Assembly: GCA_017418645.1 (NCBI GenBank)
Contig: JAFOND010000214.1
Span: 2,401-66,400, forward strand
Reading direction: 5' to 3'
Length of the DNA stretch: 64,000 nucleotides
Source of the DNA: Lachnospiraceae bacterium
GTDB lineage: Bacteria; Bacillota; Clostridia; Lachnospirales; Lachnospiraceae
Position numbers and translations under genes: made by a program. Of the stretch, positions 2,110-32,936 are shown in pieces. Every line of letters starts with the position of its first letter. Position 1 is the first letter of the stretch. A model generated the notes under the pieces. The model did not search any database and was not told the DNA's origin. It was given only the letters and a program-made list of their open reading frames with translations.

Positions 2110-2126
2110 ATACCGGAGGACATAGG

Positions 2127-12199: not shown

Positions 12200-12754
12200 A
12201 TGTTTGTATTGATCGTTAACGATGACGCGGAAACTAAAGAAGATGAAAACAGAGCTTCCCGCATCAGGGAGGCGATAAAAAACATCGAGCCGGATATCAG
12301 ATGCGATATCGTTTCGGAACTTCCGGAACCGTCGAAGACAAAGAAAAAGAAAATACGTGTCCAATGCTTCGGAGAATTTGAGGTTTTCGGAAATAACGGA
12401 CCTTTAAAGTTTAAAAGGGCAAGGACAAAAGAACTTTTTGCAATCCTTGTCTGTCACAGAGGGAGCATGCTCTCAATGGGAACGCTTATGTCGATCCTCT
12501 GGGAAGACGGAGAAGATACGGATTCCGACAGGAGTTATTTAAGAAGCATGATAAGCGATCTTAAAAAGACTCTTTTAAACGAAGAGCTTCCGGAACTGGT
12601 TATTAAGAAATACAACAGCATCGGCATAGACACATCATACATCGATTGCGATTATTATGACTTTTTGGAAGGAAAATGGGAGGCGGTCGAGCAATACAAC
12701 GGCCAGTTCATGAGACAGTATCCTTGGGCCGAATATGAGATCTCCCGAATATAA
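12200..12754 (+). CDS. Winged-helix (OmpR/SARP-like) transcriptional regulator with vestigial receiver
   Basis: IRVQCFGEFEVF...FKRARTKELFAILV...ILWE...DLKKTL...CDYYDF...YNGQFMRQYPWA pattern. Confidence 0.8.
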   Translation: MFVLIVNDDAETKEDENRASRIREAIKNIEPDIRCDIVSELPEPSKTKKKKIRVQCFGEFEVFGNNGPLKFKRARTKELFAILVCHRGSMLSMGTLMSILWEDGEDTDSDRSYLRSMISDLKKTLLNEELPELVIKKYNSIGIDTSYIDCDYYDFLEGKWEAVEQYNGQFMRQYPWAEYEISRI

Positions 12755-16060: not shown

Positions 16061-18520
16061 ATGAGGCACATAAAAAGAAGTACATGGATTTTATGCGCAA
16101 TATGGGCTGTGGTTGTTGTGGTAGTCGCAGCTTATACAAATATCAGTAAAACGGATAAGTCAACATATACCGCTACAAGCGACAGCATATCTTTTAACGG
16201 CAAGACCTATGTTTCCGATAACAGTAACGGTTTCGGCGTAATCTACCGCCTTTCTACGGAAGGAGAGACCGAAAAAACATATATAAACCACAGAAGAAAA
16301 TATGTTTCCGACTGGAAGGTTGCAAAGCTTGCTTCGGAAAACGTTGACGGTACCGTAGGCGGATCCGTATATGGTCTTATGGTCGGAAAAGAAACGTCCA
16401 CGGGTAAAATTCCTTACAGGATAGCAAGTTTTACGACGGATCTTGTTACGGAAGCCATGAGTACAACATTCTATCTTCACGGAGGACTTACAGTTACCGG
16501 TTTTTCCGCAGATGAAGGAATTCTCTACATAACCGGCGTTTCAAAAAGCCGCCAGGATGTATATGTATACAGATATGATAAATACTCTCTCATACAGTTT
16601 GAGGGAATGACTAATACCCAGAAGGCAAACCTTGTGGGAGAAGCGGAAGAACTTTCCGAAATGAGCAAAGAAAGAAGCTCATCGGGTGGGATCTATACGG
16701 ATGCGGAATATGCGGAAGGCATGCTCTATACACGTATGGACGATCAGGAAGCAAGCGAATACTTTGCCGAAGATACGGATGTTAAAAATCTTTTCGATAC
16801 CAGATCCGAATCCATTTTCGAAAACCTTAAGGCAGGCGGAATGTCCATCGTTGACATCTTCGCATACATCATCTTCGGATGCGCGATAATAGTAGCGCTT
16901 TCACTTATTCTTGTACACAGAAGACGAATTGTTTACAGAATAATATTTATAGAAATCCTGTTTGTTGCCATAACCGTTTTTGCGTTCCTGATCTGCGCAC
17001 ATATCAACCATAAGGCCGCGGAACGTGAATTTATGAGAAACGAAGTTTATTCGCTTTCGCTTCTCGGAAGCAGCGCACCGAAAGATATCGGTACGGATGA
17101 TTTCTTTGCATCATCGGAATACGAAACCTTTTATACAAACATGAATACCGTTGCGGACAGATCCGATGAGATGGCAAAGATTAAGGATATCGCACTTGTT
17201 GATTCCATCAGCGGAAAAATCCTTATGAGTACAAGCGGATACGGCGGCGGCTCGGTATCATATGTATACGGTGATACCGCAAGATCACTTGTTACGGGGC
17301 CTGAGAGCATCAGCGATGCTACCGGAAACCTTGACGGGAACGATGTACATTTTGTATGTGTCGGAGTTACGGGTGCTCCGCAGTACAGACTTCTCTGCGT
17401 TGCAAACCTGCTTTCCGTAATGGAATATGTACTGGCTTTCCAGATACAGCTTCCGATAATACTTATCATATTCTTCTTTATCGCGTCCACCGCTGCTGTT
17501 GTACTCATCAATTATGAGACCGCATCCCTTGAAAGAGTGGGAGAGGCTTTGGAGAAACTCGGTGCCGGAGAAGGAAACGTTGATATTCCCAACGAACCCT
17601 TCGGATACGACATAAAGCGTATGTGGGCAAGCATAAACGAGATCGAAAAGAATCTTAAAAAAGCGGGGCGGGAGAAGTTCCTTACATATGAGGCATATTT
17701 CCGCTTTGCTCCGAAAAAGATAGAAAAGATAATCGGAAAAGACGATATAACAGAGGTTCAGATCGGAGATACAAAGCGTATCAACGGAACCGTTGCGATC
17801 ATAGAAAACGGCCGTGACGAAAGACTCGACGAAGTGAATCTCAAAAAGAGAAACAGCTTCTTTGAGGTTGTTGAGAAATGCAGCGAAGCAAATAACGGAA
17901 TATTTATTTCTGCGGAAGACGATCTTACGACAATGAAGGTTCTCTTCCTTGAAAATGACAAAGAGAGCATCCGTTTCGGAACGGATCTTTCAAGGGATAT
18001 GATATCCAACAACGGATCCTTTAACGAGACGTTGCTTCTCCATTACGAATCTTTCCTTTACGGAGTTTTCGGAACAAAGGATCAGGCCATTACATTCCTC
18101 TCCGCAAAAGATATAACTGCGCTTGAGGATTACACCAGATGGCTGGGAGACCTTGGGGTTTCCATGGTTGTTACGGAGTCTGTCAAGGAACGTGAAACCG
18201 GTCCCTGGGACTTCAGATACATCGGATTCATTCTTCCGGACGAAAACGATAAGAGCAGAAGAATTAACCTTTACGAAGTTTTGGATGCTTCGAATGCGGA
18301 AATAAGACGCGGAAAGAAAAAGACGATGGATGCGTTCCGGTCCGCACTCGATATGTTCTATGAGAAGGATTTCTATTTTGCAAGAAACGCGTTTACGGAT
18401 ATCCTTCACGAGGTTCCGCAGGATGAGATAGCAAAGTGGTATCTCTTTGAATGCGAGAGACTTCTTAACGGTATAGCCGAGCCCGACTTTATCGGGGAAC
18501 TGCATTTAGACAGGGCATAG
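16061..18520 (+). CDS. Multi-pass membrane protein with degenerate class III nucleotide-cyclase-like C-terminus
   Basis: About four TM helices and a HAMP-like linker. AYFRFAPKKIEKIIGKDDITEVQIGD and INLYEVLD...AKWYL match sequences flanking class III cyclase domains; catalytic motifs are absent. Confidence 0.65.
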   Translation: MRHIKRSTWILCAIWAVVVVVVAAYTNISKTDKSTYTATSDSISFNGKTYVSDNSNGFGVIYRLSTEGETEKTYINHRRKYVSDWKVAKLASENVDGTVGGSVYGLMVGKETSTGKIPYRIASFTTDLVTEAMSTTFYLHGGLTVTGFSADEGILYITGVSKSRQDVYVYRYDKYSLIQFEGMTNTQKANLVGEAEELSEMSKERSSSGGIYTDAEYAEGMLYTRMDDQEASEYFAEDTDVKNLFDTRSESIFENLKAGGMSIVDIFAYIIFGCAIIVALSLILVHRRRIVYRIIFIEILFVAITVFAFLICAHINHKAAEREFMRNEVYSLSLLGSSAPKDIGTDDFFASSEYETFYTNMNTVADRSDEMAKIKDIALVDSISGKILMSTSGYGGGSVSYVYGDTARSLVTGPESISDATGNLDGNDVHFVCVGVTGAPQYRLLCVANLLSVMEYVLAFQIQLPIILIIFFFIASTAAVVLINYETASLERVGEALEKLGAGEGNVDIPNEPFGYDIKRMWASINEIEKNLKKAGREKFLTYEAYFRFAPKKIEKIIGKDDITEVQIGDTKRINGTVAIIENGRDERLDEVNLKKRNSFFEVVEKCSEANNGIFISAEDDLTTMKVLFLENDKESIRFGTDLSRDMISNNGSFNETLLLHYESFLYGVFGTKDQAITFLSAKDITALEDYTRWLGDLGVSMVVTESVKERETGPWDFRYIGFILPDENDKSRRINLYEVLDASNAEIRRGKKKTMDAFRSALDMFYEKDFYFARNAFTDILHEVPQDEIAKWYLFECERLLNGIAEPDFIGELHLDRA

Positions 18521-18534
18521 AGGGGTAGTTTTAT

Positions 18535-19776
18535 ATGAACTTGTTTAACGTTCTATTAAACGTATTTAAAGCGCGGATCGTCCCGCTTGTCACAAAGGCA
18601 AAACTCCTCCTTAATCCGAGGTTCGTTCTTTCGAGATTAACGGAGTTAATACGTCGTCTCGTTCGAGAAGTTCTTAACGTACGCCCGCGTAATAAGGACG
18701 ATTATTATCCGATCGGTAACTGGCTTGTTTCAAAGAAGCTTGCGTATGCTGTGGTTATCGTTATCGGTATTCTTTGTACGGTTTATATCGTATCCCAGAA
18801 GGATGCGCTTTTCCCGGGTAACAGCGAGAGTTACATAAAAACATATAATTACAATTCGATCCTCTTAAAATATGCAAAAGGCAAGGTCCGCATCAAAGGA
18901 AAGAGCGGCTGGATCGCATATGAGGGAGAGGTTTCCGATGCTGCCTGCAACGGCAAGGGAACCCTCACAAATCCCGAAGGGATCGTTATCTACGAAGGAA
19001 ACTTTAAGTCCAGCATGTATGAAGACGAGGGTACGCAATATTATGAAAACGGTATCCTTGAATATGTTGGCGAGTTCCATGAAAACCAGTATAACGGAGA
19101 CGGCAAGCTTTACCGCGAGACGGGAAGTCTTTTGTATGACGGCGACTTCTTGAGAAACATGAAGGACGGTACCGGAAAGCTTTATAATACAGGCGGAGAA
19201 GAAATTTATAACGGACAGTTCTCACAGGATAAGATCCTTTTCTCATCCCTTCTCGGAAAGAATTCAACCGAGATGGCAATGATTTATAACGGAAACAGAA
19301 AACTCTATGAAGCGGGTTCCGAAAGAGTCCGTGTTATGAACGATATCAATGCCATGACGGAAGAGATTACGAATTCTTCTTCCATCGAATCAAACGCAAC
19401 GGTAAGTGCCGTATATGTTATGGAAAATTCCATACGTATCGGTTCACATGATTATACAACCTTTGAAGGTATTCAGCAGGTTCTCGGAGAGCCGACCTAT
19501 GTCGGAGATTCATATGCAACTCTTCCGGAGCTTATGATAATAAACCGATTAAACGACAAGTCCGACGTAAAGGTTATGAACGGAAGCGCGGAGATTGTTG
19601 AGAACGAACTCTATACGGAATATACGGAAGTTGAATCCTATGATACGGATTACATCGTATACCTCCATTCTTATGAGAAGGACGGTCTTGTATACAACTT
19701 TGTATCGGGACCGGACGATACGACGTTTGCTTTCTATTATATCCTTGAGAGAAATCAGTCAGACGATGCGGCATAA
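18535..19776 (+). CDS. Membrane-anchored MORN-repeat protein
   Basis: One TM helix, then repeats YEGEV..GKGTL, YEGNF..DEGTQY, YVGEF..GDGKLY, YDGDF..GTGKLY, YNGQF. Confidence 0.85.
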   Translation: MNLFNVLLNVFKARIVPLVTKAKLLLNPRFVLSRLTELIRRLVREVLNVRPRNKDDYYPIGNWLVSKKLAYAVVIVIGILCTVYIVSQKDALFPGNSESYIKTYNYNSILLKYAKGKVRIKGKSGWIAYEGEVSDAACNGKGTLTNPEGIVIYEGNFKSSMYEDEGTQYYENGILEYVGEFHENQYNGDGKLYRETGSLLYDGDFLRNMKDGTGKLYNTGGEEIYNGQFSQDKILFSSLLGKNSTEMAMIYNGNRKLYEAGSERVRVMNDINAMTEEITNSSSIESNATVSAVYVMENSIRIGSHDYTTFEGIQQVLGEPTYVGDSYATLPELMIINRLNDKSDVKVMNGSAEIVENELYTEYTEVESYDTDYIVYLHSYEKDGLVYNFVSGPDDTTFAFYYILERNQSDDAA

Positions 19777-19794
19777 ACCACTTAGGAGGATATT

Positions 19795-21258
19795 ATGGGT
19801 AAGTATTATCGTCTCACGGAAGACACAGCCCTGAGAAGCTGGCTGTTTGTTCCCCAGGCTTATTATAAAAAAAATGAGGTAGGAGCGAAGCCTTTGAGCG
19901 ACGAGGAATTCGACATCCTGTCTCTGTGTGACGGAGAGCATGAGATCCCGGACAGCGAGCTTTTAAGCTCCCTTGTTTCCCAGGGTCTCATCAGCGAGTG
20001 TCAAAAAGGGGAAAAGCCATCGGAATGGTCTTCATATAAGGAATATCCCCATCGTTATTTTCCGGAAATGTGCCTTATGATGACGGGACATTGCAACTTA
20101 AACTGCCTCCATTGCTTTAATGCGAAAGACAACGCTCCCATAGTGACTGAATGGAGCTGGGAGCAGCTTAAGGATCTTTTGGATCAATGCGCGGATGCCG
20201 GCGTTCAGGCATTTACCATCACCGGCGGCGAGCCCATGGTGCATCCCCATTTTATGGATATGATGCGCTATATCTATGAGAAGAACATGATCGTTAAGGA
20301 ATTAAACACCAACGGTCACTTCCTTACCAAAGAACTCCTGGACGAGTTAAAGAGCTTCGGATGTAATCCCCTTATAAAGATTTCCTTTGACGGCGTGGGC
20401 TTCCACGACAGGATCCGTAATGAAGAGGGTCTTGAAAAGGAAACAATCGGGAAAATGCATCTTGTGGTGGACAACGGCTTCCGTCTTATGTCCCAGACAC
20501 AGGTTAACAGGATAAATATCAGTTCCATGATGGATACGGTAAAACTGATGACCGACATCGGCGTTGTTCGTGCCCGTATCACCCGTACACAGGAGGTTCC
20601 CCGCTGGGTTCAGCTTGTGGGAGATGCAAGCCTTCCCCCCGACGAGTATTGCGAAAAGATGCTTGAGTTCGCCGGCGAGTATGCAAGAAGCGGGATGCAG
20701 ACGGAACTTTCCATCTGGAATCTCATTAACATGAATCCAAAGGAAAAGACGTACCGTCTTGTTCCCGTCATGTTCAGGGATGGCGAATACAAGCCCACCC
20801 AGGCGGTCTGCATGGACTGCAGGAAAATGATAAACGTCCGATCCAACGGAGAGGTTATCACCTGTCTCCAGATCGGCGGAGGCCTCGACGCAATGGGCGA
20901 GCATTTTGAAAGCCTTCATGAAAAGCCTCTGGCAGAGATCCTTAAAGACAGTCTTTGGGAGAGGATGGTGTGCACCAATGTACACCGTATTTCGGAGGTT
21001 ACACCGGAATGCAAAAACTGCAGGTTCTTTAAGTACTGCGGCGGAGGATGCCGGGCGGTGGGAATGCTTCTTTCCGACTATCGTTATGATTTCTTAAAGG
21101 CGCACGGCAACACCGAAGGCCTTGAACTGGTAGAAAAGATGTATCTTTCTCCGGACAAGACAAAGTGCGCTTTCTTTCATCAGGGCTATTATAAAAAGGC
21201 TGTTGAGATCATGGGAGACTGGGAGAACCAGAGCACAATTCCGGAGGATGTGCTTTGA
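19795..21258 (+). CDS. Radical SAM/SPASM peptide maturase
   Basis: CNLNCLHC (CxxxCxxC), TGGEP, SPASM-like C...GEVITC...CKNCRFFKYCGGGCRA...C, plus an N-terminal RRE-sized extension. Confidence 0.9.
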   Translation: MGKYYRLTEDTALRSWLFVPQAYYKKNEVGAKPLSDEEFDILSLCDGEHEIPDSELLSSLVSQGLISECQKGEKPSEWSSYKEYPHRYFPEMCLMMTGHCNLNCLHCFNAKDNAPIVTEWSWEQLKDLLDQCADAGVQAFTITGGEPMVHPHFMDMMRYIYEKNMIVKELNTNGHFLTKELLDELKSFGCNPLIKISFDGVGFHDRIRNEEGLEKETIGKMHLVVDNGFRLMSQTQVNRINISSMMDTVKLMTDIGVVRARITRTQEVPRWVQLVGDASLPPDEYCEKMLEFAGEYARSGMQTELSIWNLINMNPKEKTYRLVPVMFRDGEYKPTQAVCMDCRKMINVRSNGEVITCLQIGGGLDAMGEHFESLHEKPLAEILKDSLWERMVCTNVHRISEVTPECKNCRFFKYCGGGCRAVGMLLSDYRYDFLKAHGNTEGLELVEKMYLSPDKTKCAFFHQGYYKKAVEIMGDWENQSTIPEDVL

Positions 21259-23318
21259 CAAAGCCTGTAAAAAATGTTCCGCTGATCACACAGCTCGAGA
21301 GACGGGAATGCGGAGCCGCCTGCCTTTCAATGGTTCTGGCAGCATATGACAAATGGATCCCTCTTGAAAGGACCCGAATAGACTGTGGAGTAACCCGAAG
21401 CGGAGTCTCCGCAGGAAACATTGTCCGTGCCGCAAGGTCATACGGCATGGAAGCAAAAGGCTATTCGTTAAAAGCCGAAGCTCTTAAGGGAAAGATTCAT
21501 TTTCCCTGCATTATCCACTGGCAGAAGAATCATTTTGTTGTTCTTTGCGATCTTCGCGGAAGATCCGCGGTTATTAACGATCCCCAAAAAGGAAAATTAA
21601 AGATTACCTTTGATGAGTTTAAAGATAACTTTACGGGTGTTGTGCTTGATATTTATCCCGGAGAAGCTTTTGTTCCTTCCGGAGAAAAGAAAAGCATTGT
21701 TTCTTTTGCAAAAAAGAGACTTACGGGTATGACGGGGGTTGTAGTTCTTATCACCCTTGCAATGCTTTTAAACAGCGCCTTCGGGTTTATCGATCCCGTG
21801 ATGAACAGAATGTTTTTGGACAGGATCCTGGGAGAAAGGGATGCTGCCTTTTTAAACACTTTTATATTGATACTTGTTGCGCTTGCGGTTTTCAGGATAA
21901 TCGTACTTCTTCTGCAGACACTGTATCGCATGAAGATTATGAATAAGATGTCTTACGAAGGAAATGCTTCTTTTATAAGAAAGATATTCCGCCTTCCTTA
22001 TGAATTCTTTTTGCAGCGTCCCGCAAGCGACCTTTTATCAAGAAAAGAAAAGAACGCATCCATTGCCATGTCCCTTGTAAGCACCATCGCCCCGCTGTTC
22101 TTAGAGACAGGATTAATGATATTCTTTTTATGCGTGATGATCAAAGAATCCCTGCTCCTTACGGCTGTGGGAATGGTTACGGTTGTGATCAATCTTTTTA
22201 TGTCGAGGGTCATTGCAGAAAAAAGGATAAATTTCAACAAGATGATGATAAACGATACGACACGTCTTTCTTCCGCCACGCTGACCGGGCTTTTGATGAT
22301 GGAAGGAATCTTTGCTTCCGGAGCGGAGGACGGTTTCTTTAAGAAATGGAAGGAATACAGGGATCTTCGTTACGAAGGAAAGGAAGCATTTATAAGAGCG
22401 GATTCGTTCTTAAATATCATTCCCGGTTTTATTTCTGCGGCATCAAGTTATACCGTAATGTTCATCGGTGTTTATCTTACAATGCAGGGCAGATTCACCC
22501 TTGGCCTTATGACTGCATTCCTGGGTTATCTTTCTTCTTTTATGAATCCCGCGGAGACTCTTATATCATCCGGACAAAAGATTTCCGAAATGCGTACTGA
22601 TATGGATAGGATAGAAGATGTGACGGAATATCCGGATGATCCCCTGACGGCGGAAGAGGGCGAAGATGAAGAAGAAATAACTCTCTCCGGAAATATCGAA
22701 ATGAAAAACGTATCCTTCGGTTACGATCGTTTTGAGGAACCTTTGATAAAGGAATTTTCCTTAAAGATTTCCGCCGGAGAAAACCTTGCGGTGATCGGGC
22801 GTTCCGGTTCGGGAAAAACAACTCTCGTAAGACTTCTTGCGGGGCAGTATCTTCCCATTTCGGGAGAGGTACTGTATGACGGAAAAAGCATAAAGGATAT
22901 AGGGCATAAGGCGTTTACAAAGAATGTGGCGTTGATAGAACAGGATACCATCTTCTTTAACGATACAATAAGAAACAATATAAAAATGTGGAATGAAACC
23001 GTTACAGACGAGGAGATGGAAAAGGTGTGCAAAGATGCACTGATCTATGACGAGATAATGTCCCGGGAGGGTGGATTCGATGCCGTTATAAAAGAAAACG
23101 GAAACGATCTTTCCGGCGGACAGAGGCAGAGGATAGAGATCGCGAGAGCGCTTCTGAAGAATCCGAAGATCCTGATCCTTGACGAAGCCACGGGAGCTTT
23201 GGATTATGAGACGGAAGAGAAGATACTGAAAAATCTGAAGGAGAAAGGAATAACCTGCATAACGGTAACCCATCGGAAGACGGCACTGACATTCTGCGAC
23301 AGAGTGATAGAAAAATGA
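21255..23318 (+). CDS. Peptidase C39-containing ABC exporter (NHLP/bacteriocin type)
   Basis: QLERRECGAACL, HWQKNHFVV, INDP; Walker A GRSGSGKT; LSGGQRQR; LDEAT. Confidence 0.93.
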   Translation: MTKPVKNVPLITQLERRECGAACLSMVLAAYDKWIPLERTRIDCGVTRSGVSAGNIVRAARSYGMEAKGYSLKAEALKGKIHFPCIIHWQKNHFVVLCDLRGRSAVINDPQKGKLKITFDEFKDNFTGVVLDIYPGEAFVPSGEKKSIVSFAKKRLTGMTGVVVLITLAMLLNSAFGFIDPVMNRMFLDRILGERDAAFLNTFILILVALAVFRIIVLLLQTLYRMKIMNKMSYEGNASFIRKIFRLPYEFFLQRPASDLLSRKEKNASIAMSLVSTIAPLFLETGLMIFFLCVMIKESLLLTAVGMVTVVINLFMSRVIAEKRINFNKMMINDTTRLSSATLTGLLMMEGIFASGAEDGFFKKWKEYRDLRYEGKEAFIRADSFLNIIPGFISAASSYTVMFIGVYLTMQGRFTLGLMTAFLGYLSSFMNPAETLISSGQKISEMRTDMDRIEDVTEYPDDPLTAEEGEDEEEITLSGNIEMKNVSFGYDRFEEPLIKEFSLKISAGENLAVIGRSGSGKTTLVRLLAGQYLPISGEVLYDGKSIKDIGHKAFTKNVALIEQDTIFFNDTIRNNIKMWNETVTDEEMEKVCKDALIYDEIMSREGGFDAVIKENGNDLSGGQRQRIEIARALLKNPKILILDEATGALDYETEEKILKNLKEKGITCITVTHRKTALTFCDRVIEK

Positions 23319-24913
23319 CAAAAAAAGACCTCATAAAAAACCTCATACGCCCGACGGATATCGGCCTTGTCCTTGTCGTAACACTTATTTCGACAGGTCT
23401 TTCTTTGCTGCCCGCATACTTTGTCAAACTGCTTACCGGCGATGTCATCCTTAAAAACAGCGAAACGCTTCTTGTGGGCGTATTTGTTATGATGCTTTCC
23501 GCGGAAATCTTTTCGCAGCTCATGAAATCCTTAAAAAAGATTTTTTCCGGCCGTTTAGGTCTGCGCTCAGAGAAGTATATGGAAGAAAAAACAATGGAAA
23601 AGATGCTTTCCCTTCCCATATCTTTCTTCAGGCAGTTTCCGGCCGGAGAACTGTATCAAAGACAAAAGGCCGTCCCGGAACTTTATTCAGTAATAACCGG
23701 CGCCATAGTTCCGTTATGCATCGGAGTGTTTTCAGGAGTTGCTTTTTCCGTACAGATATCGGGGTTTACGCCGAAACTTTTACTTCCCGCCATTGTGATA
23801 ATAATTGCGACGGTTTTTGTATCTTTTTTAACATCCCTGAAAAAAGTTGATATCGGAAAAAGAGAAGTCCTTTTATCAGCAAAAGAAAACGCCATAAGCC
23901 TTGATATTATCCGGGGCGCATCAAAGATAAAGCATTCCGGTTCGGAGGATACCGCATTTAAAAAATGGGAGGAAGAGTATGACCGCGCCGCAAAACTAAA
24001 GTATGATCCGCCGTTTTTTATAAAAGTGTCCCCTGTTCTTTTTACAGTATTAAAGATCTTCGGCGGGATACTTATCTATTACATCGCGGCAAAGTACGAT
24101 ACGGAAGTATCCGACTACCTTGCTTTTAACACGGCATACGGCGGGCTTTTATCCGCATTTTCAACCCTTTCGGATACGGCTCTTTCCTTTGCGTCCGTTC
24201 CTCCCGTATTAAACCTTGCAAAACCGATCCTTGATGCGGTACCGGAGGATATGACGGGAAAGGAAGAAGTAAAAGAACTGTCCGGCAGGATAGAAGTAAA
24301 GAATCTTACTTTCGGATACGAAGAAGGGAAGGACGTCATAAAAAATCTGTCTTTTAGTATCGAACCCGGAGAATTTGTTTCGATAGAAGGGAAGACCGGC
24401 TGTGGAAAGACAACGCTTATCCGACTTCTCCTCGGACTGGAAAAGCCCCGGGAAGGACAGGTTTTATATGACGGGAAAGATATTGAAACACTTAATAAAA
24501 AAGAATTAAGAAAGAACATCGGAGCCGCAATCCAGGACGGACGGCTCTTTGCGGAGGATATTTTTACAAACATAACCATAGGAGACGAAAGCCTTACGGA
24601 AGAAGACGTCTGGGCTGCAGCGGAAATGTCTGAGATCAAAGACGAGATAAAAGATTTCCCCCTTCTTTTGGAAAACCAGATAAACGAGACGGGAACAAGC
24701 ATATCCGGCGGGCAGAAACAGCGCTTTCTTATTGCCCGGGCAGTTTGCAAAAAACCGAAGATCATAATATTTGACGAAGCCATGAGCGCCCTTGATGCCG
24801 GAATGCAGGAGGCGATCATAACAAACGTCCGAAAGACGGGGGCAACGCTGATCGTGGTTTCCCACCGCCCGGAAACCGTTGCGGGTGCGGATAAAAAGAT
24901 AAAGCTCCCTTAA
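23315..24913 (+). CDS. Second ABC transporter subunit (permease plus ATPase, NHLM bacteriocin-system type)
   Basis: TM domain, GKTGCGKT, ISGGQKQR, FDEAMSALD. Overlaps the upstream gene (ATGA). Confidence 0.9.
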   Translation: MTKKDLIKNLIRPTDIGLVLVVTLISTGLSLLPAYFVKLLTGDVILKNSETLLVGVFVMMLSAEIFSQLMKSLKKIFSGRLGLRSEKYMEEKTMEKMLSLPISFFRQFPAGELYQRQKAVPELYSVITGAIVPLCIGVFSGVAFSVQISGFTPKLLLPAIVIIIATVFVSFLTSLKKVDIGKREVLLSAKENAISLDIIRGASKIKHSGSEDTAFKKWEEEYDRAAKLKYDPPFFIKVSPVLFTVLKIFGGILIYYIAAKYDTEVSDYLAFNTAYGGLLSAFSTLSDTALSFASVPPVLNLAKPILDAVPEDMTGKEEVKELSGRIEVKNLTFGYEEGKDVIKNLSFSIEPGEFVSIEGKTGCGKTTLIRLLLGLEKPREGQVLYDGKDIETLNKKELRKNIGAAIQDGRLFAEDIFTNITIGDESLTEEDVWAAAEMSEIKDEIKDFPLLLENQINETGTSISGGQKQRFLIARAVCKKPKIIIFDEAMSALDAGMQEAIITNVRKTGATLIVVSHRPETVAGADKKIKLP

Positions 24914-24929
24914 TGAAGGGAGCTTTTTT
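24901..24929 (+). terminator. Rho-independent terminator
   Basis: AAAGCTCCCTT-AATG-AAGGGAGCTTT followed by a T run. Confidence 0.85.
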
Positions 24930-24933
24930 GTTT

Positions 24934-24966
24934 GTTGCGGTTTCGTTGCACTTTTTATTGTAAAAT
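24934..24966 (+). promoter_or_regulatory. Direct-repeat operator plus -10 element (copy 1)
   Basis: GTTGCGGTTTC-GTTGCACTTTTTATTG-TAAAAT, 27/33 identical to 32863-32895. Confidence 0.75.
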
Positions 24967-25017
24967 ACGTCCCAAATAGGGTATAATAACTCCGTATATA
25001 TTGATGTCGCCACGCGT

Positions 25018-25053
25018 TGTCATTTCGAGGAGCAAAGCGACGAAAAATCTTAA
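25018..25053. repeat. REP-like element (copy 2)
   Basis: 34/36 identical to 1007-1042. Confidence 0.7.
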
Positions 25054-25085
25054 CTATAAATATGAGTAAGTAAGGAGGACGCACT

Positions 25086-25418
25086 ATGAATATCGAAAGA
25101 TACCTTAAAGGGTTAAACGAAGACATAAAAGATGAGCTTCGCGCCTGCGATAATGTTGAGGAACTTCTTTCCGTTGCGCAGGAAAAAGGGCTTGAACTTC
25201 CGGACGAGGCGCTGGATGCGGTTTACGGCGGATGCGGCACAAGCTATACATACCAGATCGACGATTATCAGAGATGCAAGACCTGTTATAACAGAGTTGC
25301 TCTCCGTTCGGTAGGACATGACGGTTTTCCGGATGTATATTTCTGCCAGTTCTGCTTTACGACAAAGACGCCGACAGAGATCGAGAGATATTACAACAGG
25401 AGAAAAGTAGTTAAATAA
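25086..25418 (+). CDS. Nif11-like leader RiPP precursor peptide
   Basis: Leader ...EELLSVAQEKGLELPDEALDAVYGG (double-glycine) and a 61-aa Cys-rich core. Next to the C39 exporter and radical SAM. RBS AAGGAGG. Confidence 0.85.
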   Translation: MNIERYLKGLNEDIKDELRACDNVEELLSVAQEKGLELPDEALDAVYGGCGTSYTYQIDDYQRCKTCYNRVALRSVGHDGFPDVYFCQFCFTTKTPTEIERYYNRRKVVK

Positions 25419-25442
25419 GATCTTTTTAAAGGGGGATCCGCA

Positions 25443-28400
25443 ATGCATAATATTTTTAAAAAGAGTACAAAACGGATGATATCCGCAATGCTTGTTTTTG
25501 CAATGCTTGTGGGTTCTCTTTCTTATTGCGGAGATCTTTCTTCGTTCTCCGTTTTAGCGGCAATATCGGACAACACATATGATTCCACGGGAGCTGTCCT
25601 TGGGGATCTTGTTCGCGCGAACGTAAAAAATCACGGCATAGAAGATTACCAGTTTACAAATGATGAGGTCATTGCCGCCCTTAAGGCGGTGGGCGATGAG
25701 ATGCATGTCACGGGAGGATCGGACGAGGAATCCGGTCAGGTATATGATGACGACATTACTTCCGTTCCCATCTACAAGATAATCCAGGTGCTTTTTGAAA
25801 ATTATAACGAAGCAAAGAAAAAAGCTATCATAAAAGAAGCTGAGGAGATCAAGGCAGAAAACGAAAAAGCAAAGAAAGATTATGAAGAACAGAAGAAAAA
25901 GATAGAGGAAGAAAACGCTGAGGCTGACGAAGAAAATCAGAAGTCGCTTCCTGAAGAGCCTACATATAAAGAGGTTCCGGATGTCAACGCATACGTTGAT
26001 GTAACATATAATATCAAAAAGTCCGTGGGCTATTCCGGAGGCACTCTTGCAAACGCATACACATACCTTAATCTTATAACCGATTACGTCCGCGAAAAGG
26101 AACCTGCGGCACAGTCTTTGTATGACGATAAGATCGAGGCGATGATCACGGAAAGAGTTAAAACCGTTTCCACAAACATCAGCATGTCCGCAATAACGGA
26201 TGCGGTTAAACAGTATATCAAGGATCATACCACGGAACTTGTTAATTATAATGAGATGGAATATGTGGACTCTTTTACGAGCCCCCATACGGTAACGTTT
26301 TTCCAGTATACGCAGACACATTTCATCGATCCCGGAACACTTTTTATCGGAACATATCTTATTGACGCAAGTGCCATAAACGATGTGTATTATCGCTATG
26401 CCAAAGACAGCATGGGTATTATGTCACAGAATATCATGTATTATAAATCGGAACTCGACGGAGGAAACTGGAAAGATATTATCTCCGCAGCGGGTCTTTC
26501 CGATATTCTTCCCACGTCAACAACCGTTCCCAGTGCGGATCTTAATAAATATAAGATAACCTGCGTTGTTGGAAAGGACGGTATCCCAAGATATCCGGAT
26601 CTTCCGGCAACGGATCCCAATTCCGAATGCGATATCTTTACAATGACGGATCCCTATGATATGGCTGCGGTTCCTGAACTTGTAAAGCTTAAGCTTATGT
26701 TTGATGCCGGTGTCGTTTCCCAGAATACCGCCGATCTTTCGAACCGTTATACTGCGGACATTCTTTACCGTTTCTTTAACTATGACGGTTGCGGCGACAA
26801 TAAATCCATGATGATAATAAGAAACAGGGGCTACAGGGATTATGTATACGATCACCCGGAAGACGGAAAGACCATCGTTGGACAGAACCCCATCCCCATG
26901 TCGGAAAAGCTTCCCGCGGCTGCAAAGGATATAAAGAAGTTTACTTATATCACAAAGGAAGAGATCATGTATGTTACGGACCTTCAGGACAAGGCCCTTC
27001 ATCTTTCATGTAATATGGCACAGACTGTGGACCGTTATCAGGACCATCCGGATGCATGGATAGACCAGATCCTTTCCTGGATGGAATATTACGGTAACAG
27101 AAAATTCAATAATGTTAACGGCGGAAGACCCATAATCCTTCCCATAGAAGATATGGCAGATTCCCAGTGGGAGCGCCTGAATTTTAATCAAGATCCCCTT
27201 AATCCCCAGAGATTCATGTTCATTGTTAACGGTGTTCCCAGCACCGGAGACCAGAAGGAATTCATTAACCGCTGGATGTCGGATTCCGGTTTTCAGACCG
27301 GATCGACTCATTATGAAGACAGCAAAGGAAACAGGGTGGATAACCCCGGCGATGCGTACGGATTTGATAAATCCTGGTATGATCTTTATAAGAAAAATCC
27401 AATTGAAAAATTTAATGTATTTAAAGAGAACAACTATAGTAATGTAAAAGGTGACAACAAATATTATCTGATCGCTATGGGTGTTAATAGCGAAACGCGA
27501 TATGTTGCGGCAAAAGCGACCTATGATTATTTCAAAAACATAGAAAACGGCACATATAAAGAAGTTCCGGATACGTATTACTTAACTTATGATTATATCA
27601 ATGCCAATAAAGACAAGATGAATTTTGTTTTCTATGCACAGACGGGAGTATATGACGGCGGCCAGACCTTCAGCCTGAAGTTTGTTGAAGGTCAAAAGTG
27701 GAAGGATTTTAAGAATCTTATCTATCGTTATATGGACTGGCTTCGGAATATGTATGACATCCGTGATGACGTTACCTATACCTGTGACGATCATCTTAAG
27801 AACTTAAATGCGCTCTACAAGAAAGAAAGAAACGCCGGCAGGATCGACCAGGCAAATACTCTTATGGAACTTATGAGCCATGTGGATGCCACCCGCCGTG
27901 CGGAAATATATTATAACCTGGTATTCAATGAAGATAATAACGTTGTTCTCGGCCCCTCACTTATGTATGTCCTTGATCTTCTTATGGACGGAAAAGGAAA
28001 GGTGGGCCAGAACTATACCTTTATCTCCGGCGATACCGACGGTTCCTATGCATCAAACGATGCGATCCTTACGGCAGTTGAAGATGCCGTTGAAAACTGC
28101 CAGAAGAAATATTACGACTATGCGAGCATGTCCCTTTCGGATTCCGAAAATCTCTTGAAGGAGAAGGAATATGAATTATCTAACCTTATCCTTGCATCAA
28201 GAAACGATACGGACAGAAGCACATACCTGGACAGACTTGATTCTCTTTACAACATAATGGATATGGCCATCGTTGATAAAGACAGAGAAAAAACAATGAT
28301 AGACGAACTCCTTGAAGAGTCAGAGGAACGCTATGCGGAAAAGATCCATGACGTTGCAAGTGCGGATTATACGGAACTTGCATCAACTCCGGGAGTTACA

Positions 28401-29774
28401 AAGGCAACTCTCCGCGCAAGCCTTGAACTTCAAAAAGATGAGGCAAACACAAAGGTTTCGGAACTTCAGTTCCTTATAAGAGGATATGCATTAAGAAGCA
28501 ATATGTCCCAGGGTATCCTCTTCATAAACAGAAGACTTGACTGGGCACAGGCACAGGCTGCGGATATTCAGATGGAAGATCCCTTCGGCGCTTTTGCAAA
28601 GGAATCTCTTGATGAACACATAAAATGGCTGAAGGACATCTTGGCGAAGGTTAAGAACGGAACCCTTTCGGGAGACGATACGGAAGATGTGGATGCGGAT
28701 GCATATCTTCAGGGAGACCTTCTGGATGCACTTGATAATAACGACCTTGAACTTGCAACCAAGATCGGTGAAGAAGAAAGAGATCCGAATGCAGGCGGAA
28801 GCGGAACAGGTGACGACGGAAACGGCGGCGCCGGCGGCGGAGACGGAGACGGAGGACTTACTACCAGTACGAATCCGTTCCAGGAGCTTATCGATAAACT
28901 GGAAGAAAAGATACTTGACGATCCGGACGGCGCGAACCGGGATCCGAAACCGCTTATCGAAGCGTTGGGACAGCTGGGAGATGCGAACCTTCCGAATCTT
29001 AAGAACAGCCTCGTAGCAAGAGGCGTTGATGAGAGTATCATAAATGCCGTGGATGATGCCATAGAGAAATCAAAGAGTTCCAGCTATTATGACGGAACGG
29101 GAGATGACGGCTCCGGAAATAAGGATACAGGCAACGGACCGAGGCTTTCATACGACGATCTCTTAAAGCTTATTGAATCCCTGTTCGGAAAAGCTTTTGC
29201 GGATCTCGATGATGACGAAAAAGCAATCGTTGTTGCGGCTTGTACAAGATACGGAAACGACTACACGTATCCGGAGGTTTCCGAATTCGGACGCGGCGTT
29301 ATGTATCAGGCCCTTGACGAAAACAACGGATTCTTCTACAGACAGTTTACGGCGGATACCAGTGAGGAATATGTCAACCTTGCCGCTGTGGATAAGACAA
29401 GAAGACAATCCTGCTACAGATACGTTAAGCGAGGAAGAGAAGTAATCATGTCACAGATCAACCGTCCTTCCATGTCAGGAAGTTATGTATTTACGGTGGG
29501 ATCCAATATTGCATACAACAGATCCAAGAGATATATGGACCTTTCGAAGAATGTTGTACAGCAGACGGATGAATATGTACGCGGATCCCTTACAAGAAAC
29601 TATGCATATCTTGACGAGGGTGATGCGCAGAAACTTCTGGGTGTAACATGCCAGTACGTTCCGCAGAGCATATATGCGGTATACCTCTCCGGCGATATGG
29701 AGACAAAGGCGACGGCGTTCTATGAACTTATCGTTAAGACGGTTAATGAACTGGAAGCGAATTCTAAGAAGTAG
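25443..29774 (+). CDS. Giant exported protein (1443 aa), paralogue A
   Basis: Signal peptide. Shares blocks with the next gene (FIGTYLID, YKSELDGGNWKDI, DATRRAEIYYNL). Confidence 0.8.
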   Translation: MHNIFKKSTKRMISAMLVFAMLVGSLSYCGDLSSFSVLAAISDNTYDSTGAVLGDLVRANVKNHGIEDYQFTNDEVIAALKAVGDEMHVTGGSDEESGQVYDDDITSVPIYKIIQVLFENYNEAKKKAIIKEAEEIKAENEKAKKDYEEQKKKIEEENAEADEENQKSLPEEPTYKEVPDVNAYVDVTYNIKKSVGYSGGTLANAYTYLNLITDYVREKEPAAQSLYDDKIEAMITERVKTVSTNISMSAITDAVKQYIKDHTTELVNYNEMEYVDSFTSPHTVTFFQYTQTHFIDPGTLFIGTYLIDASAINDVYYRYAKDSMGIMSQNIMYYKSELDGGNWKDIISAAGLSDILPTSTTVPSADLNKYKITCVVGKDGIPRYPDLPATDPNSECDIFTMTDPYDMAAVPELVKLKLMFDAGVVSQNTADLSNRYTADILYRFFNYDGCGDNKSMMIIRNRGYRDYVYDHPEDGKTIVGQNPIPMSEKLPAAAKDIKKFTYITKEEIMYVTDLQDKALHLSCNMAQTVDRYQDHPDAWIDQILSWMEYYGNRKFNNVNGGRPIILPIEDMADSQWERLNFNQDPLNPQRFMFIVNGVPSTGDQKEFINRWMSDSGFQTGSTHYEDSKGNRVDNPGDAYGFDKSWYDLYKKNPIEKFNVFKENNYSNVKGDNKYYLIAMGVNSETRYVAAKATYDYFKNIENGTYKEVPDTYYLTYDYINANKDKMNFVFYAQTGVYDGGQTFSLKFVEGQKWKDFKNLIYRYMDWLRNMYDIRDDVTYTCDDHLKNLNALYKKERNAGRIDQANTLMELMSHVDATRRAEIYYNLVFNEDNNVVLGPSLMYVLDLLMDGKGKVGQNYTFISGDTDGSYASNDAILTAVEDAVENCQKKYYDYASMSLSDSENLLKEKEYELSNLILASRNDTDRSTYLDRLDSLYNIMDMAIVDKDREKTMIDELLEESEERYAEKIHDVASADYTELASTPGVTKATLRASLELQKDEANTKVSELQFLIRGYALRSNMSQGILFINRRLDWAQAQAADIQMEDPFGAFAKESLDEHIKWLKDILAKVKNGTLSGDDTEDVDADAYLQGDLLDALDNNDLELATKIGEEERDPNAGGSGTGDDGNGGAGGGDGDGGLTTSTNPFQELIDKLEEKILDDPDGANRDPKPLIEALGQLGDANLPNLKNSLVARGVDESIINAVDDAIEKSKSSSYYDGTGDDGSGNKDTGNGPRLSYDDLLKLIESLFGKAFADLDDDEKAIVVAACTRYGNDYTYPEVSEFGRGVMYQALDENNGFFYRQFTADTSEEYVNLAAVDKTRRQSCYRYVKRGREVIMSQINRPSMSGSYVFTVGSNIAYNRSKRYMDLSKNVVQQTDEYVRGSLTRNYAYLDEGDAQKLLGVTCQYVPQSIYAVYLSGDMETKATAFYELIVKTVNELEANSKK

Positions 29775-29796
29775 TGTCAAAAAAAGGGGAAGAGGA

Positions 29797-32700
29797 ATGA
29801 AGTATAAGAAGGGAAAAACAAATAAATACATTGCGGCGGCCCTTGCGGGTTCACTTCTCCTTGGTGTGCTTTCACCATACATAACACCTGCTTCTTCGGC
29901 GTACGCAAAAGGTTCCGGAGGAAGTTCCGGAAATACGACGCAGACCCCGGCAACGGAGAAAACGACCTCTTCCGAGGAAACTGTTTTAGACCTTGCCCAG
30001 GCGGACAAAGAGCGTTACGCTCCGGAAAAATTTCATAAATACGGAATAACCTATAAGGAATTCGTTAAAAAGAACGGCGAGCCGAGATATGCTCATATCC
30101 TTATAGGTACATATCTTATCGATCTTGTTCCCACGGAACAGATGATGAAAGACGGCGACGAGGCTCTTACGTCCGAGACTGCAGTCGCAGCAAAAACTTC
30201 AAAACTTACGTATCAGCAAAACGTTACATTCTATAAGAGCGAACTCGGAGACGGAACCTGGCGAGATATTGATCTCGCGGAAAGCCTTGATTCCATACGT
30301 CCGGGATCCGGCACAAGAGTAAGCGACTCCGAAATGGATAACATGCTTATCACGGTTTATGTTTCCGGCGGAAAGTCCAATTCCACATTGGATGAGGACG
30401 AAAACGGTGAAGATCCGTCAAGAAAGAATCCCTTCCTTGAACCCTCACCCTATAACCTTGACGAGATGCCGGAAATGGAAAACATCCTTAATATGTTATC
30501 AGACGGAAGTCTTCCCTATACGTCTGTTGCAGCGAGCAAGAGTCTTATCGCCGAAAACCAGTCCAATTATTTCCTTTCGGAAAGACTTCGTTATATGTTC
30601 GACCATGACGAGGTTACGGATACCATAAAGCTTCAGGACGGAGACGTTGAAAAGGCAAAGGCCGCAAGCGATGCCTTGAGGACCGGTTCCGGTGGAGAGA
30701 CCGCAAAAAAGATAGAAGAAGCCATCGATAACACTGAAGAAAGAGGCAGTCTTTATTTTTCAAACCTTACCACTTTAAAAGAAAATAAATCATTCACTCT
30801 CGGAGAGAACGGCACCGTTGCGGCAACCGAAAGACTTGCATACCATTTTTCCGATACAAGGGATGAACTTACGGATGTAATGGATAAGGCTGTCGTTAAT
30901 CTTTGGAAGATCTTCCTTGAATATAAGGATGCCGCAAAGGAAGCGGGAGAAGAGGAGGACTCTTTCGACAGACAGGATAATACCATTTATAACAAGGATA
31001 AATATTCTTTCATATATCAGCTCTGCGCAAATGCGGATGCAACAAGGCGCGGGGAGGCTTATTACAATCTTTCCGTAAACGATGAATTCCATGGATACAC
31101 GGGTTCTGTTCTTACAAACTTAAAGGCCATGAATACCAATGGCCAGTCATATATCGGAAGAAATATCCAGAACGCAAATTATTATCAGCCGCAGAAGGAA
31201 TATAACGCTATTGAAAAAGTGGGGAATGCGGTGTCGGGTCTCATAACCGGGGAAAAGAAAGAATCGAACTACGGAGGCTTTAAGTCCAACGAACAGCTGG
31301 CGGAAGAGATCCAGACCGCAACGGAAGCTGCCCAGGAGAAATATATAGGTTACGGCGAGTCCACTCTTTCCAGGGGAACTACCGCGGTTTCCATCCTTAT
31401 CTATGACAACGATCTTAAGATGTTCGAAAAGGAAAAGAAGGATGACGAGTTTGATACACTTGTTACGGAAACCATTTATGCAACCGCGATCCGGGATGAC
31501 GCGCCCAGATCAAAGCCGGCTGAAGCGGCGCTTATAAAAGATAAGCTTACGGGATCCCAGAATGAGATACTTCTTTCATATATAAAATCGGGAGTACCTG
31601 CGGAATATGCAAGCGCAACTTCCGATAACGAGAAGAAGAGTGTTCTTTTGGTACAGCAGCAGTCCGGAAAGAATGCCGAGAATGCGATGGAGAAACTTGT
31701 TAATTCCTATCTCGCAAGAGAAACCGTTAAAGATACATATTCTGCTTATCTTATATCACAGCTCAGATGGATCCGGGGAACAAAGGATTCCATCAAGGAT
31801 GACGTATATGAGAGTTATGCGGAAGAAATAAGATCCACGTATGAAACTTTCTTATTAAATAAGATGAGGGAACTGGGAATAGCGGATCCTGACGATCCCG
31901 GCGAAGGAGACCTTACCGATGATCCGTCGGATAAGCTTCCGAAGAACCTTGATCCGGACGATCCTTCTTATCAGCAGACTTTAGATGCTCTTCTTGATAA
32001 GTATATAAAGGAAGGCAATACGATTCCGGAAGGCTATCATGCGGAAGTGTCCATAGACCCGGCAACGGGAGCCGCATCCCTTAACTTTGTAAAGGACGAC
32101 AGGGACAGTGATTCCGGAAGTTCAAAGAACGATGCCGGAAGTACGGGCGGCGGAACCGAAGGCTCCGCGGGAACAAACAACGGACAGGGCGGCAAAGACG
32201 GTGTCGGATCGGGACTTCTTGTTCCCACAGGCAATATGCTGGATAATCTTTTGGCATTCCTTGGAAAGTCCTGGGACGAACTTAGTCCGGATCAGCAGGC
32301 GGAACTTGTATGCGCACTGAACCAGTACGGACGTGAAAATAAAAATGATGAAGCGGCGGAACTTGCAAGAACCCTTCTTGATAAGATAAAGGAACTTAAG
32401 AACCCGCTGGTTTATGCAAAATATAAAAACAATACCTATACGGAATATGTTTCTTTGGGATGTGCGGACCGCGCCAGACTGTATACAAAATTCCGATCCG
32501 TTAAGAAGAAGGGCACAACATCCCTTGCAACGGTTTCGATGCAGAAAACCGATGACGGTGTTGCATATGTTTATCAATACGGAAAAGCCAGGGTTAAAAA
32601 GACAGGCGGAAAGTGGGAGGATATTACGGCGGCTCCCGTATTCCAGAAAGATATATACTTAAATCGCGGCGAAGACACAAAGTTTATGTACATAAGCGAG

Positions 32701-32832: not shown

Positions 32833-32862
32833 AATAAAAAAAATAGTAAAAATATATAAATA

Positions 32863-32895
32863 GTTGCATACTTGTTGCACTTTTTATGGTAAAAT
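32863..32895 (+). promoter_or_regulatory. Direct-repeat operator plus -10 element of the CIS operon (copy 2)
   Basis: GTTGCATACTT-GTTGCACTTTTTATGG-TAAAAT, preceded by an A-rich tract. Confidence 0.75.
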
Positions 32896-32936
32896 TACTC
32901 CATCGTTAGAAAAGTAATTCAGGGGGATATTAATAA

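What the first reader, a model, noticed from the sequence alone, without database searches (positions are those of the whole stretch)
19795..25418. Radical-SAM Nif11-leader RiPP cassette nested inside the CIS accessory region
Seen: rSAM/SPASM, C39-ABC, a second ABC and the precursor lie between the MORN gene (18-bp gap) and the giant proteins (24-bp gap). Maturase and export genes appear to read through from the membrane module, while the precursor follows a terminator and the CIS-type promoter. Inference: a peptide product co-regulated with the injection system (second weapon or signal), or a recent insertion that captured these promoters.
Basis: partly seen in the sequence, partly recalled or inferred. 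Interest (0 to 1): 0.75.

Follow-up and report, generated by a model that had tools for sequence, protein, structure and literature searches.

The report
Peptide-antibiotic-type gene cassette inside injection-system locus
A complete four-gene set for making and exporting a modified cysteine-rich peptide sits inside the gene cluster of a phage-tail-like injection machine in a cattle-rumen bacterium; it was inserted once, has been kept by four related species, and its peptide gene has almost the same promoter as the machine, so the two are probably switched on together.

Summary
Window 19795-25418 encodes a radical-SAM/SPASM maturase, a C39-peptidase ABC exporter, a second ABC protein and a 110-aa precursor (49-aa Nif11-like leader ending GG, 61-aa Cys-rich core). 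The 18-bp and 24-bp gaps, the terminator and the promoter are as described.

The cassette belongs to a large, apparently uncharacterised RiPP family of rumen and gut Firmicutes. 78 of 80 loci of this family lie away from any CIS genes.

Among 80 species-level genomes with this CIS type, only three others carry the cassette after the MORN gene, and 67 run from MORN to the giant gene without it. The four CIS-linked exporters form one clade (support 100). This points to one insertion that was then retained, not a fresh event.

The precursor promoter has two GTTGC repeats 11 bp apart plus TAAAAT. It matches the promoter before the CIS structural operon at 21 of 22 bases. The same type occurs in cassette-less CIS loci and in stand-alone RiPP loci. 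REG1, at the head of the locus, folds like a SARP activator.

Co-regulation is therefore well supported by sequence but not shown. The peptide's chemistry and role (weapon or signal) remain inferred.

The parts
12200..12754 (+). REG1: 184-aa receiver-less SARP-like winged-helix activator at the head of the CIS accessory module; candidate binder of the GTTGC repeats
   Evidence: Pfam Trans_reg_C E 1.2e-4. AF2 model has pLDDT 90.8. Best Foldseek hits are the AfsR SARP domain (8hvr_I, E 2.4e-6) and EmbR. Homologues head 19 of 80 CIS loci.
18535..19776 (+). MORN-repeat gene, last gene of the membrane module; left border of the insertion
   Evidence: Pfam MORN; homologues in 80 CIS loci.
19795..21258 (+). 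Radical-SAM/SPASM peptide maturase (487 aa). It has C100-x3-C104-x2-C107 and SPASM cysteines C339, C357, C406, C409, C415, C419 and C458. Its ~90-aa N-terminal domain is a possible leader-recognition element.
   Evidence: Pfam Radical_SAM 1.3e-16, Fer4_12, SPASM 9.4e-4. Invariant Cys columns in 25 homologues. Nearest solved relatives are SkfB, SuiB and CteB, all distant.
21255..23318 (+). C39-peptidase/permease/ATPase exporter that should cut the leader after GG and export the peptide
   Evidence: Peptidase_C39 1.6e-32, ABC_membrane, ABC_tran. TIGR03796 692.7 bits. Catalytic ECGAAC, HW..NHF and NDP motifs present.
23315..24913 (+). Second ABC permease/ATPase (no peptidase domain), partner of the exporter
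   Evidence: ABC_membrane + ABC_tran; TIGR03797 420.3 bits.
24901..24926 (+). Intrinsic-terminator-like hairpin overlapping the ABC2 stop codon
   Evidence: 11-pair stem, 5 GC pairs, loop of 4, T tract.
24934..24966 (+). Promoter of the precursor and giant genes: GTTGC-N6-GTTGCAC, 9 nt, TAAAAT. An overlapping sigma-70-like TTGTAA-18-TATAAT lies at 24958-24987.
25086..25418 (+). Precursor peptide: leader residues 1-49 (three predicted helices, ...LDAVYGG) and core 50-110 (C50, C64xxC67, C87xxC90, basic tail)
   Evidence: Translation. Alignment A2: L43, G48, G49 and C50 invariant in 40 of 40. AF2 pLDDT 72.
25443..29774 (+). Giant exported protein 1, right border of the insertion; co-transcribed with the precursor (24-bp gap, no terminator found)
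   Evidence: Giant homologues follow MORN directly in cassette-less loci.
32863..32895 (+). Second copy of the promoter, ahead of the CIS structural operon (Pvc16_N gene at 32937)

Best explanation
Window 19795-25418 is a complete RiPP cassette of a large rumen/gut Firmicute family. Inferred from family knowledge: the rSAM/SPASM enzyme modifies the Cys-rich, zinc-ribbon-like 61-aa core of the precursor while the Nif11-like leader is attached, most likely making Cys-derived cross-links. The C39-ABC exporter, with its ABC partner, then cuts after Gly48-Gly49 and exports a peptide that begins with the invariant Cys50. Shown by comparison: the cassette was inserted once between the MORN gene and the giant-protein gene of a Lachnospiraceae CIS locus, and four species-level genomes have kept it. 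Read from sequence: the maturase and exporters have no promoter of their own and are read with the membrane module. The precursor has a promoter of the type that also precedes the CIS structural operon and a distant GNAT/cargo gene. This promoter carries two GTTGC(A) repeats 11 bp apart in place of a -35 box, the architecture used by SARP activators, and REG1 at the head of the locus has that fold. The peptide is therefore most likely made and exported whenever the injection system is made, either as a second antagonistic molecule or as a signal.
For: Gene identities. Family: 1258 homologues at E<=1e-30. Within the 80 rSAM loci, 161 precursor-like ORFs lie in 66 of the loci scanned, ABC1 occurs in 47 of 80 and ABC2 in 45 of 80. 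Leader family. Same-site synteny in G061, G062 and G063. Absence in 67 of 80 CIS loci and in G001, G056 and G007. Single origin: the ABC1 clade of the 4 CIS-linked genes has SH-aLRT 100, and the rSAM pairs group at 85. Promoter. It occurs in cassette-less CIS loci before the fibre-like or Pvc16 genes (L145, L189, L154). REG1 SARP-like fold. Core conserved more than leader (75% against 45% between G000 and G061). Contigs from metatranscriptome libraries of three studies bridge the MORN-rSAM junction; one bridges rSAM-ABC1 and one bridges precursor-giant.
Against: No expression, binding or chemistry has been measured. The RNA-library contigs are short, low-depth and could contain DNA. The stretch after MORN is variable: G061 has 6 kb of other genes there, G062 has unrelated genes after ABC2, and L136 has a different gene, so the cassette may be only one of several passengers. 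G063 keeps the exporters and precursor in the locus, but its rSAM lies elsewhere among housekeeping genes. No precursor was found in G062. An overlapping sigma-70-like promoter could drive the precursor independently. The window's precursor does not reach the Nif11 thresholds on its own.
Confidence: 0.6

Rival explanations
1. Incidental passenger. The site after MORN is a hot spot where assorted modules carrying this common promoter type land. The RiPP cassette is an ordinary bacteriocin-like cluster whose only tie to the CIS is location and a widely used regulator family.
For: 78 of 80 rSAM loci lie away from CIS genes. 67 of 80 CIS loci lack the cassette. Other inserts occupy the same site. 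The GTTGC promoter occurs 2-9 times per genome, also before unrelated membrane or secreted proteins.
Against: The cassette has been retained at one site through four species-level lineages as a single clade. In this genome the precursor promoter matches the CIS promoter at 21 of 22 positions. The maturase and exporter depend on read-through from CIS accessory genes. The core peptide is conserved more than the leader.
Confidence: 0.25
2. Signal peptide. The exported modified peptide is the autoinducer of a LytS-type kinase / REG-type response-regulator pair that switches on all GTTGC promoters, so the RiPP works as a quorum or priming signal for the injection system.
For: REG-type regulators lie in 13 of the 80 stand-alone loci. 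In the loci tested they are receiver-plus-winged-helix response regulators (8 scanned), each preceded by a LytS-type kinase in the 5 loci examined. Such loci carry 11-bp direct-repeat promoters, before a precursor gene in L057 and L060. This genome has such a pair on contig C155 (kinase 44% identical to that of L054). That contig also carries a third copy of the promoter. The conserved core suits a receptor ligand.
Against: The C155 kinase has an in-frame stop before its H box. REG1 in the CIS locus lacks a receiver domain. No kinase lies in the CIS locus. Nothing shows that the peptide is sensed.
Confidence: 0.12
3. The rSAM enzyme modifies a CIS or giant protein rather than the small precursor.
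For: It is co-transcribed with CIS accessory genes.
Against: Precursor-like genes were found in 66 of the roughly 85 loci scanned. The invariant GG-Cys junction lies in the precursor. In G063 the rSAM is unlinked to the CIS locus, while the precursor and exporters stay in it.
Confidence: 0.03

Closest known systems
Nif11/NHLP-leader RiPP systems with the paired export ABC transporters TIGR03796 + TIGR03797 (Haft, Basu and Mitchell 2010, PMC2887384, cited from the reference lists seen)
   Same: Nif11-like helical leader ending in GG; a C39-peptidase ABC exporter plus a second ABC protein as the best NCBIfam matches; several divergent precursors per locus in relatives.
   Different: Both transporters score below the equivalog cut-offs (692.7 against 853.3, and 420.3 against 709.4 bits). 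There is no HlyD-type partner. The maturase is an rSAM/SPASM enzyme outside every NCBIfam equivalog (best 93 bits against a cut-off of 500). The cores are long and zinc-ribbon-like. The host is a monoderm rumen Firmicute.
Sactipeptide and ranthipeptide maturases (AlbA, StsB, SkfB, CteB) and other SPASM peptide maturases (SuiB, PqqE)
   Same: rSAM core plus a SPASM domain with two auxiliary-cluster Cys motifs; an N-terminal extension; a Cys-rich substrate; weak HMM and PDB similarity.
   Different: All matches lie far below the family cut-offs. The cross-link type is unknown. The 61-aa core with paired CxxC motifs is unlike known sacti- or ranthipeptide cores.
SARP activators (AfsR, EmbR) acting at direct-repeat promoters
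   Same: REG1's model aligns over about 160 columns with the AfsR SARP domain and with EmbR (E 2.4e-6 to 5.6e-5). The promoters have two repeats 11 bp apart next to a -10 box and no canonical -35 box for it.
   Different: REG1 is only 184 aa, with a short part of the BTAD helices and an N-terminal remnant of a receiver-like fold. It comes from Firmicutes. Binding has not been tested.
Extracellular CIS loci (PVC/Afp type) with accessory and cargo genes
   Same: The locus holds core genes (Pvc16_N, sheath, tube, spike, gp25, Baseplate_J, AAA ATPase) with variable genes around them.
   Different: The 12 top-ranked papers of a search combining 'contractile injection system' with RiPP or radical SAM contain no mention of a CIS. 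Here the variable region holds a secreted-peptide pathway rather than a loaded protein cargo.

Membership tests
Radical-SAM/SPASM peptide maturase | CX3CX2C SAM-cluster motif | tested here: met
   C100, C104 and C107 are invariant in 25 homologues; Pfam Radical_SAM 61.6 bits.
Radical-SAM/SPASM peptide maturase | C-terminal SPASM cysteine motif | tested here: met
   C339, C357, C406, C409, C415, C419 and C458 are invariant. Pfam SPASM scores 19.9 bits, just under its 21.5 cut-off.
Radical-SAM/SPASM peptide maturase | Modifies an adjacent precursor | not testable with these tools
   Precursor-like genes were found in 66 of the roughly 85 loci scanned. The chemistry needs mass spectrometry.
Nif11-like leader RiPP precursor (TIGR03798 / PF07862) | HMM score above threshold | tested here: not met
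   The window's precursor scores Pfam Nif11 14.9 bits against 23.8, and has no TIGR03798 hit. Homologues do hit at E<=0.01, though the curated cut-offs were not checked for them: 26 of 40 for TIGR03798 (best 2.7e-10) and 16 of 40 for Nif11.
Nif11-like leader RiPP precursor (TIGR03798 / PF07862) | Double-glycine cleavage site and a C39 exporter nearby | tested here: met
   G48 and G49 are invariant in 40 of 40. The C39 domain has its catalytic motifs.
NHLP/Nif11 export ABC pair (TIGR03796, TIGR03797) | Score above the equivalog cut-off | tested here: not met
   692.7 against 853.3 bits, and 420.3 against 709.4 bits. These are the best hits by far but below the cut-offs.
Sactipeptide / ranthipeptide | Cys sulfur-to-carbon thioether links | not testable with these tools
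   Only sub-threshold similarity to AlbA, StsB and SkfB.
SARP regulator | Winged helix followed by BTAD helices | tested here: met
   Foldseek top six hits are AfsR and EmbR, with 155-164 aligned columns and probability 1.00. Only part of the BTAD is present.
SARP regulator | Binds direct repeats 11 bp apart that overlap the -35 position | not testable with these tools
   The repeats are present. Binding has not been measured.
Conserved accessory gene of this CIS type | Present in homologous CIS loci | tested here: not met
   3 of 80 MORN-bearing loci have it, 67 lack it and 10 are uninformative.

The most novel reading that the evidence does not exclude
The modified zinc-ribbon-like peptide is not a bacteriocin. 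It is a dedicated signal or extracellular cofactor of the injection system: it is exported when the CIS is built and sensed through the REG-type kinase/regulator circuit, so that a RiPP gates expression or use of a contractile injection system. The purifying selection on its core across CIS-linked copies would fit this.
Probability: 0.12. Interest if true: 0.85.

Novelty: new variant of a known kind. Interest (0 to 1): 0.55.

Why it matters
Contractile injection systems are usually described with protein cargo and few known regulators. Here a secreted, enzyme-modified peptide pathway is wired into one by position, by read-through transcription and by a shared SARP-like promoter, and four species have kept it. 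That gives a concrete and cheap test of how a Firmicute CIS is regulated: REG1 plus two short promoters. It also allows a test of whether a diffusible peptide and a contact weapon are deployed together. Separately, the cassette marks a very large, apparently unstudied RiPP family. This family has more than 1000 maturase homologues, zinc-ribbon-like cores that vary greatly between members, and an invariant Cys right after the GG cleavage site. Its chemistry is open.

Tried and rejected
P0006's contig was reached as L040.
2. The search for related loci with the single rSAM protein found nothing. The alignment query worked.
3. My idea that REG1 and the GTTGC promoter arrived with the cassette was rejected. 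REG1 homologues head 19 of 80 CIS loci, nearly all without the cassette. The promoter precedes fibre-like or Pvc16 genes in the cassette-less loci L145, L189 and L154. The syntenic loci G001, G056 and G007 have no intergenic promoter before Pvc16_N at all.
4. Foldseek on the precursor model gave no match at E<=0.001. Zinc-ribbon chains and a Nif11 leader (9zn4) appear only among the non-significant rows.
5. The precursor's 5' leader RNA folds no better than shuffles (z 0.35). There is no Rfam family in 18000-33500.
6. The precursor alone gave only chance-level hits (E 0.1 and 0.21) in NCBIfam at E<=10.
7. Literature searches found no paper joining CIS with RiPP or radical SAM, and none on zinc-ribbon RiPP cores, among the top hits. 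The two older genome-mining papers I opened did not cover this family.
8. Parts of the 9-kb stretch without RNA-library contigs say nothing about absence of transcription.
Full report
WHAT IS THERE. The window carries a long run of + strand genes. After housekeeping genes (HypD, sensor kinase, GalT, a SleB-like hydrolase) come, in order:
- a small winged-helix gene, REG1 (12200-12754);
- a small membrane protein;
- a fibre-like gene;
- two genes with no family match;
- a MORN gene (18535-19776);
- the four genes of the finding;
- two giant genes;
- a CIS core at 32937-54605 (Pvc16_N, DUF4280/PAAR, sheath, tube, CIS_tube x2, base_V, gp25, Baseplate_J, Tail_P2_I, AAA ATPase).

- The rSAM/SPASM enzyme has the SAM-cluster motif and seven conserved SPASM-region cysteines.
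- The C39-ABC exporter has intact catalytic motifs.
- A second ABC protein follows.
- The 110-aa precursor reads ...LDAVYGG|CGTSY....

The gaps of 18 and 24 bp, the two 4-bp overlaps, the terminator at 24901-24926 and the promoter at 24934-24966 are all in the sequence.

THE CASSETTE BELONGS TO A LARGE STAND-ALONE FAMILY. The maturase has 1258 homologues at E<=1e-30, mostly from Ruminococcus, Lachnospiraceae and other gut or rumen MAGs, and none is named beyond 'radical SAM protein'. I examined 80 genome loci fetched with an alignment of these homologues:
- 47 hold a C39-ABC homologue, 45 hold the second ABC, and 13 hold a REG-type regulator.
- None holds CIS core genes. Only L052 and L053 hold CIS accessory genes.
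- A profile search of small ORFs in these loci and a few others found 161 precursor-like genes in 66 loci, often in arrays.

In a 40-sequence alignment, L43, G48, G49 and the first core residue C50 are invariant. 26 of 40 members hit TIGR03798 (Nif11-like leader), 16 of 40 hit Pfam Nif11, and many cores hit zinc-ribbon families. The window's own precursor stays below threshold. So 'Nif11 leader' is right for the family and marginal for this single sequence. The AF2 model (pLDDT 72) shows three leader helices, a disordered GG site, and four strands plus a helix in the core. No structural match was significant. The nearest characterised enzymes (SkfB, SuiB, CteB, AlbA, StsB) are distant, so the modification type is unknown. 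My data agree with it independently.

IS IT LINKED TO A CIS ELSEWHERE? Yes, but only in a small clade.
- Among 61 relatives, 9 have the sheath and 3 have a true rSAM orthologue.
- The syntenic CIS loci of G056 and G007 (sheath 66-68% identical) and of the same-genus G001 (79%) run from MORN straight to a giant gene.
- G061 (sheath 88%) has MORN - 6 kb of extra genes - rSAM - ABC1 - ABC2 - precursor - giant1 - giant2 - Pvc16_N.
- G062 has MORN - rSAM - ABC1 - ABC2, then unrelated genes.
- G063 (sheath 89%) has REG1 ... MORN - ABC1 - ABC2 - precursor - giant. Its rSAM is the closest relative of ours (71%) but lies alone between a gltD-like gene and secG/rnr/smpB.
- A survey of 80 MORN-bearing loci gives 3 with the cassette, 67 without, and 10 uninformative.
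- The four CIS-linked exporters form one clade with support 100 and long branches. The maturases form two pairs that group at support 85.

The simplest reading is one insertion in the ancestor of these lineages, followed by retention and fast divergence. The core peptide is conserved more than the leader (75% against 45% between G000 and G061). That is the opposite of the very variable cores of the stand-alone family.

REGULATION. The motif GTTGC-N6-GTTGCAC-N9-TAAAAT precedes three things in this genome: the precursor, the CIS core operon, and a GNAT-like gene on another contig. With a looser spacer and -10 box it occurs 5 times in this genome and 2-9 times in relatives, and never in the reversed control.

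The same motif stands before fibre-like or Pvc16 genes in CIS loci that lack the cassette. Stand-alone RiPP loci carry sequence variants of it (GTTGGAC, GTAACAC, GTGGCAC). In those stand-alone loci the regulator is a full response regulator (receiver plus REG-like winged helix), preceded by a LytS-type kinase in the five loci examined.

REG1 has lost the receiver domain. Its model (pLDDT 90.8) is most like the SARP domains of AfsR and EmbR. SARPs are known to bind direct repeats one helical turn apart next to the -10 box (established knowledge of the AfsR complex entries listed). REG1 homologues head 19 of 80 CIS loci. So 'CIS-type promoter' is a fair name in this lineage, and which system had it first cannot be told.

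The two window copies also share their spacer (21 of 22 bases), unlike the copies in G061. This suggests recent duplication or gene conversion within this genome. An overlapping sigma-70-like promoter (TTGTAA-18-TATAAT) could give basal expression of the precursor.

TRANSCRIPTION EVIDENCE. The 9-kb stretch is held by cattle-gut DNA runs of at least ten studies. Short contigs from metatranscriptome libraries of three studies bridge the MORN-rSAM junction. One contig bridges rSAM-ABC1 and one bridges precursor-giant. This fits read-through transcription but is weak: these are contigs of low depth, and DNA carry-over is possible.

VERDICT. The cassette is real and complete, and it is a new member of a large unnamed rSAM RiPP family. 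Its nesting in the CIS locus is a lineage-specific but retained insertion. Co-expression with the CIS is the best-supported reading, though it is inferred from sequence. Whether the peptide is a weapon, a signal or a mere passenger is open. A kinase/regulator pair of the RiPP-locus type on contig C155 keeps the signal idea alive, but its kinase carries an in-frame stop.

Noticed in passing
G000 contig C155:17093-19187 (- strand; outside the window): A LytS-type histidine kinase (44% identical to the kinase of RiPP locus L054) followed by a 274-aa REG-type response regulator. The kinase frame has one in-frame stop just before the H box. The same contig carries the third promoter copy (C155:1848-1880) before a 429-aa GNAT-like gene.
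   Followed up: partly
L040 (G063), 941-2389: The closest relative of the window's maturase (71%) is an orphan gene between a gltD-like gene and secG, rnr, smpB. That genome's CIS locus keeps the exporters and precursor but has no maturase.
   Followed up: partly
L006 (G007:C70), 1336-2895 (- strand): The rSAM ORF runs on in frame into a precursor-like tail (...LSDEQLNDVVGG FSDCTLYTPCPSQCFLDC). This may be a fused maturase-precursor, or an internal start for a 43-aa precursor.
   Followed up: no
L060, 2502-2621: A 39-aa ORF consisting of a Nif11-like leader only (no GG, no core). It sits 100 bp after a GTTGC-repeat promoter and just before the rSAM gene.
   Followed up: no
L090, L095, L098, L076, L108 (stand-alone RiPP loci): Arrays of 5-10 precursor genes per locus with conserved leaders and very different Cys-rich cores. 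Many cores end in a shared C..C.Y..YE.GLWLCN motif.
   Followed up: no
L052 3811-10001 (G061); L053 10018-15948 (G062); L136 10930-12244: The site just after MORN (or after ABC2) holds different inserts in different genomes. Each is preceded by a GTTGC-repeat promoter: a 1233-aa secreted protein, cargo-like 511/289/1168-aa genes, and a Lys/Glu-rich protein. This looks like an insertion hot spot for REG-controlled modules.
   Followed up: partly
window 61847-62950: REG2 is a REG-type winged helix fused to a GNAT acetyltransferase domain, at the far end of the CIS locus.
   Followed up: no
window 12200-12754: REG1's model shows an N-terminal strand-helix-strand (residues 2-38) that looks like the remnant of a receiver domain. 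Its longer homologues are full response regulators.
   Followed up: partly
G000:C196:784-816 and G000:C202:3662-3694: Two further GTTGC-repeat promoters in this genome, before a 316-aa membrane protein and a signal-peptide protein. The regulon is wider than the CIS plus the RiPP.
   Followed up: partly
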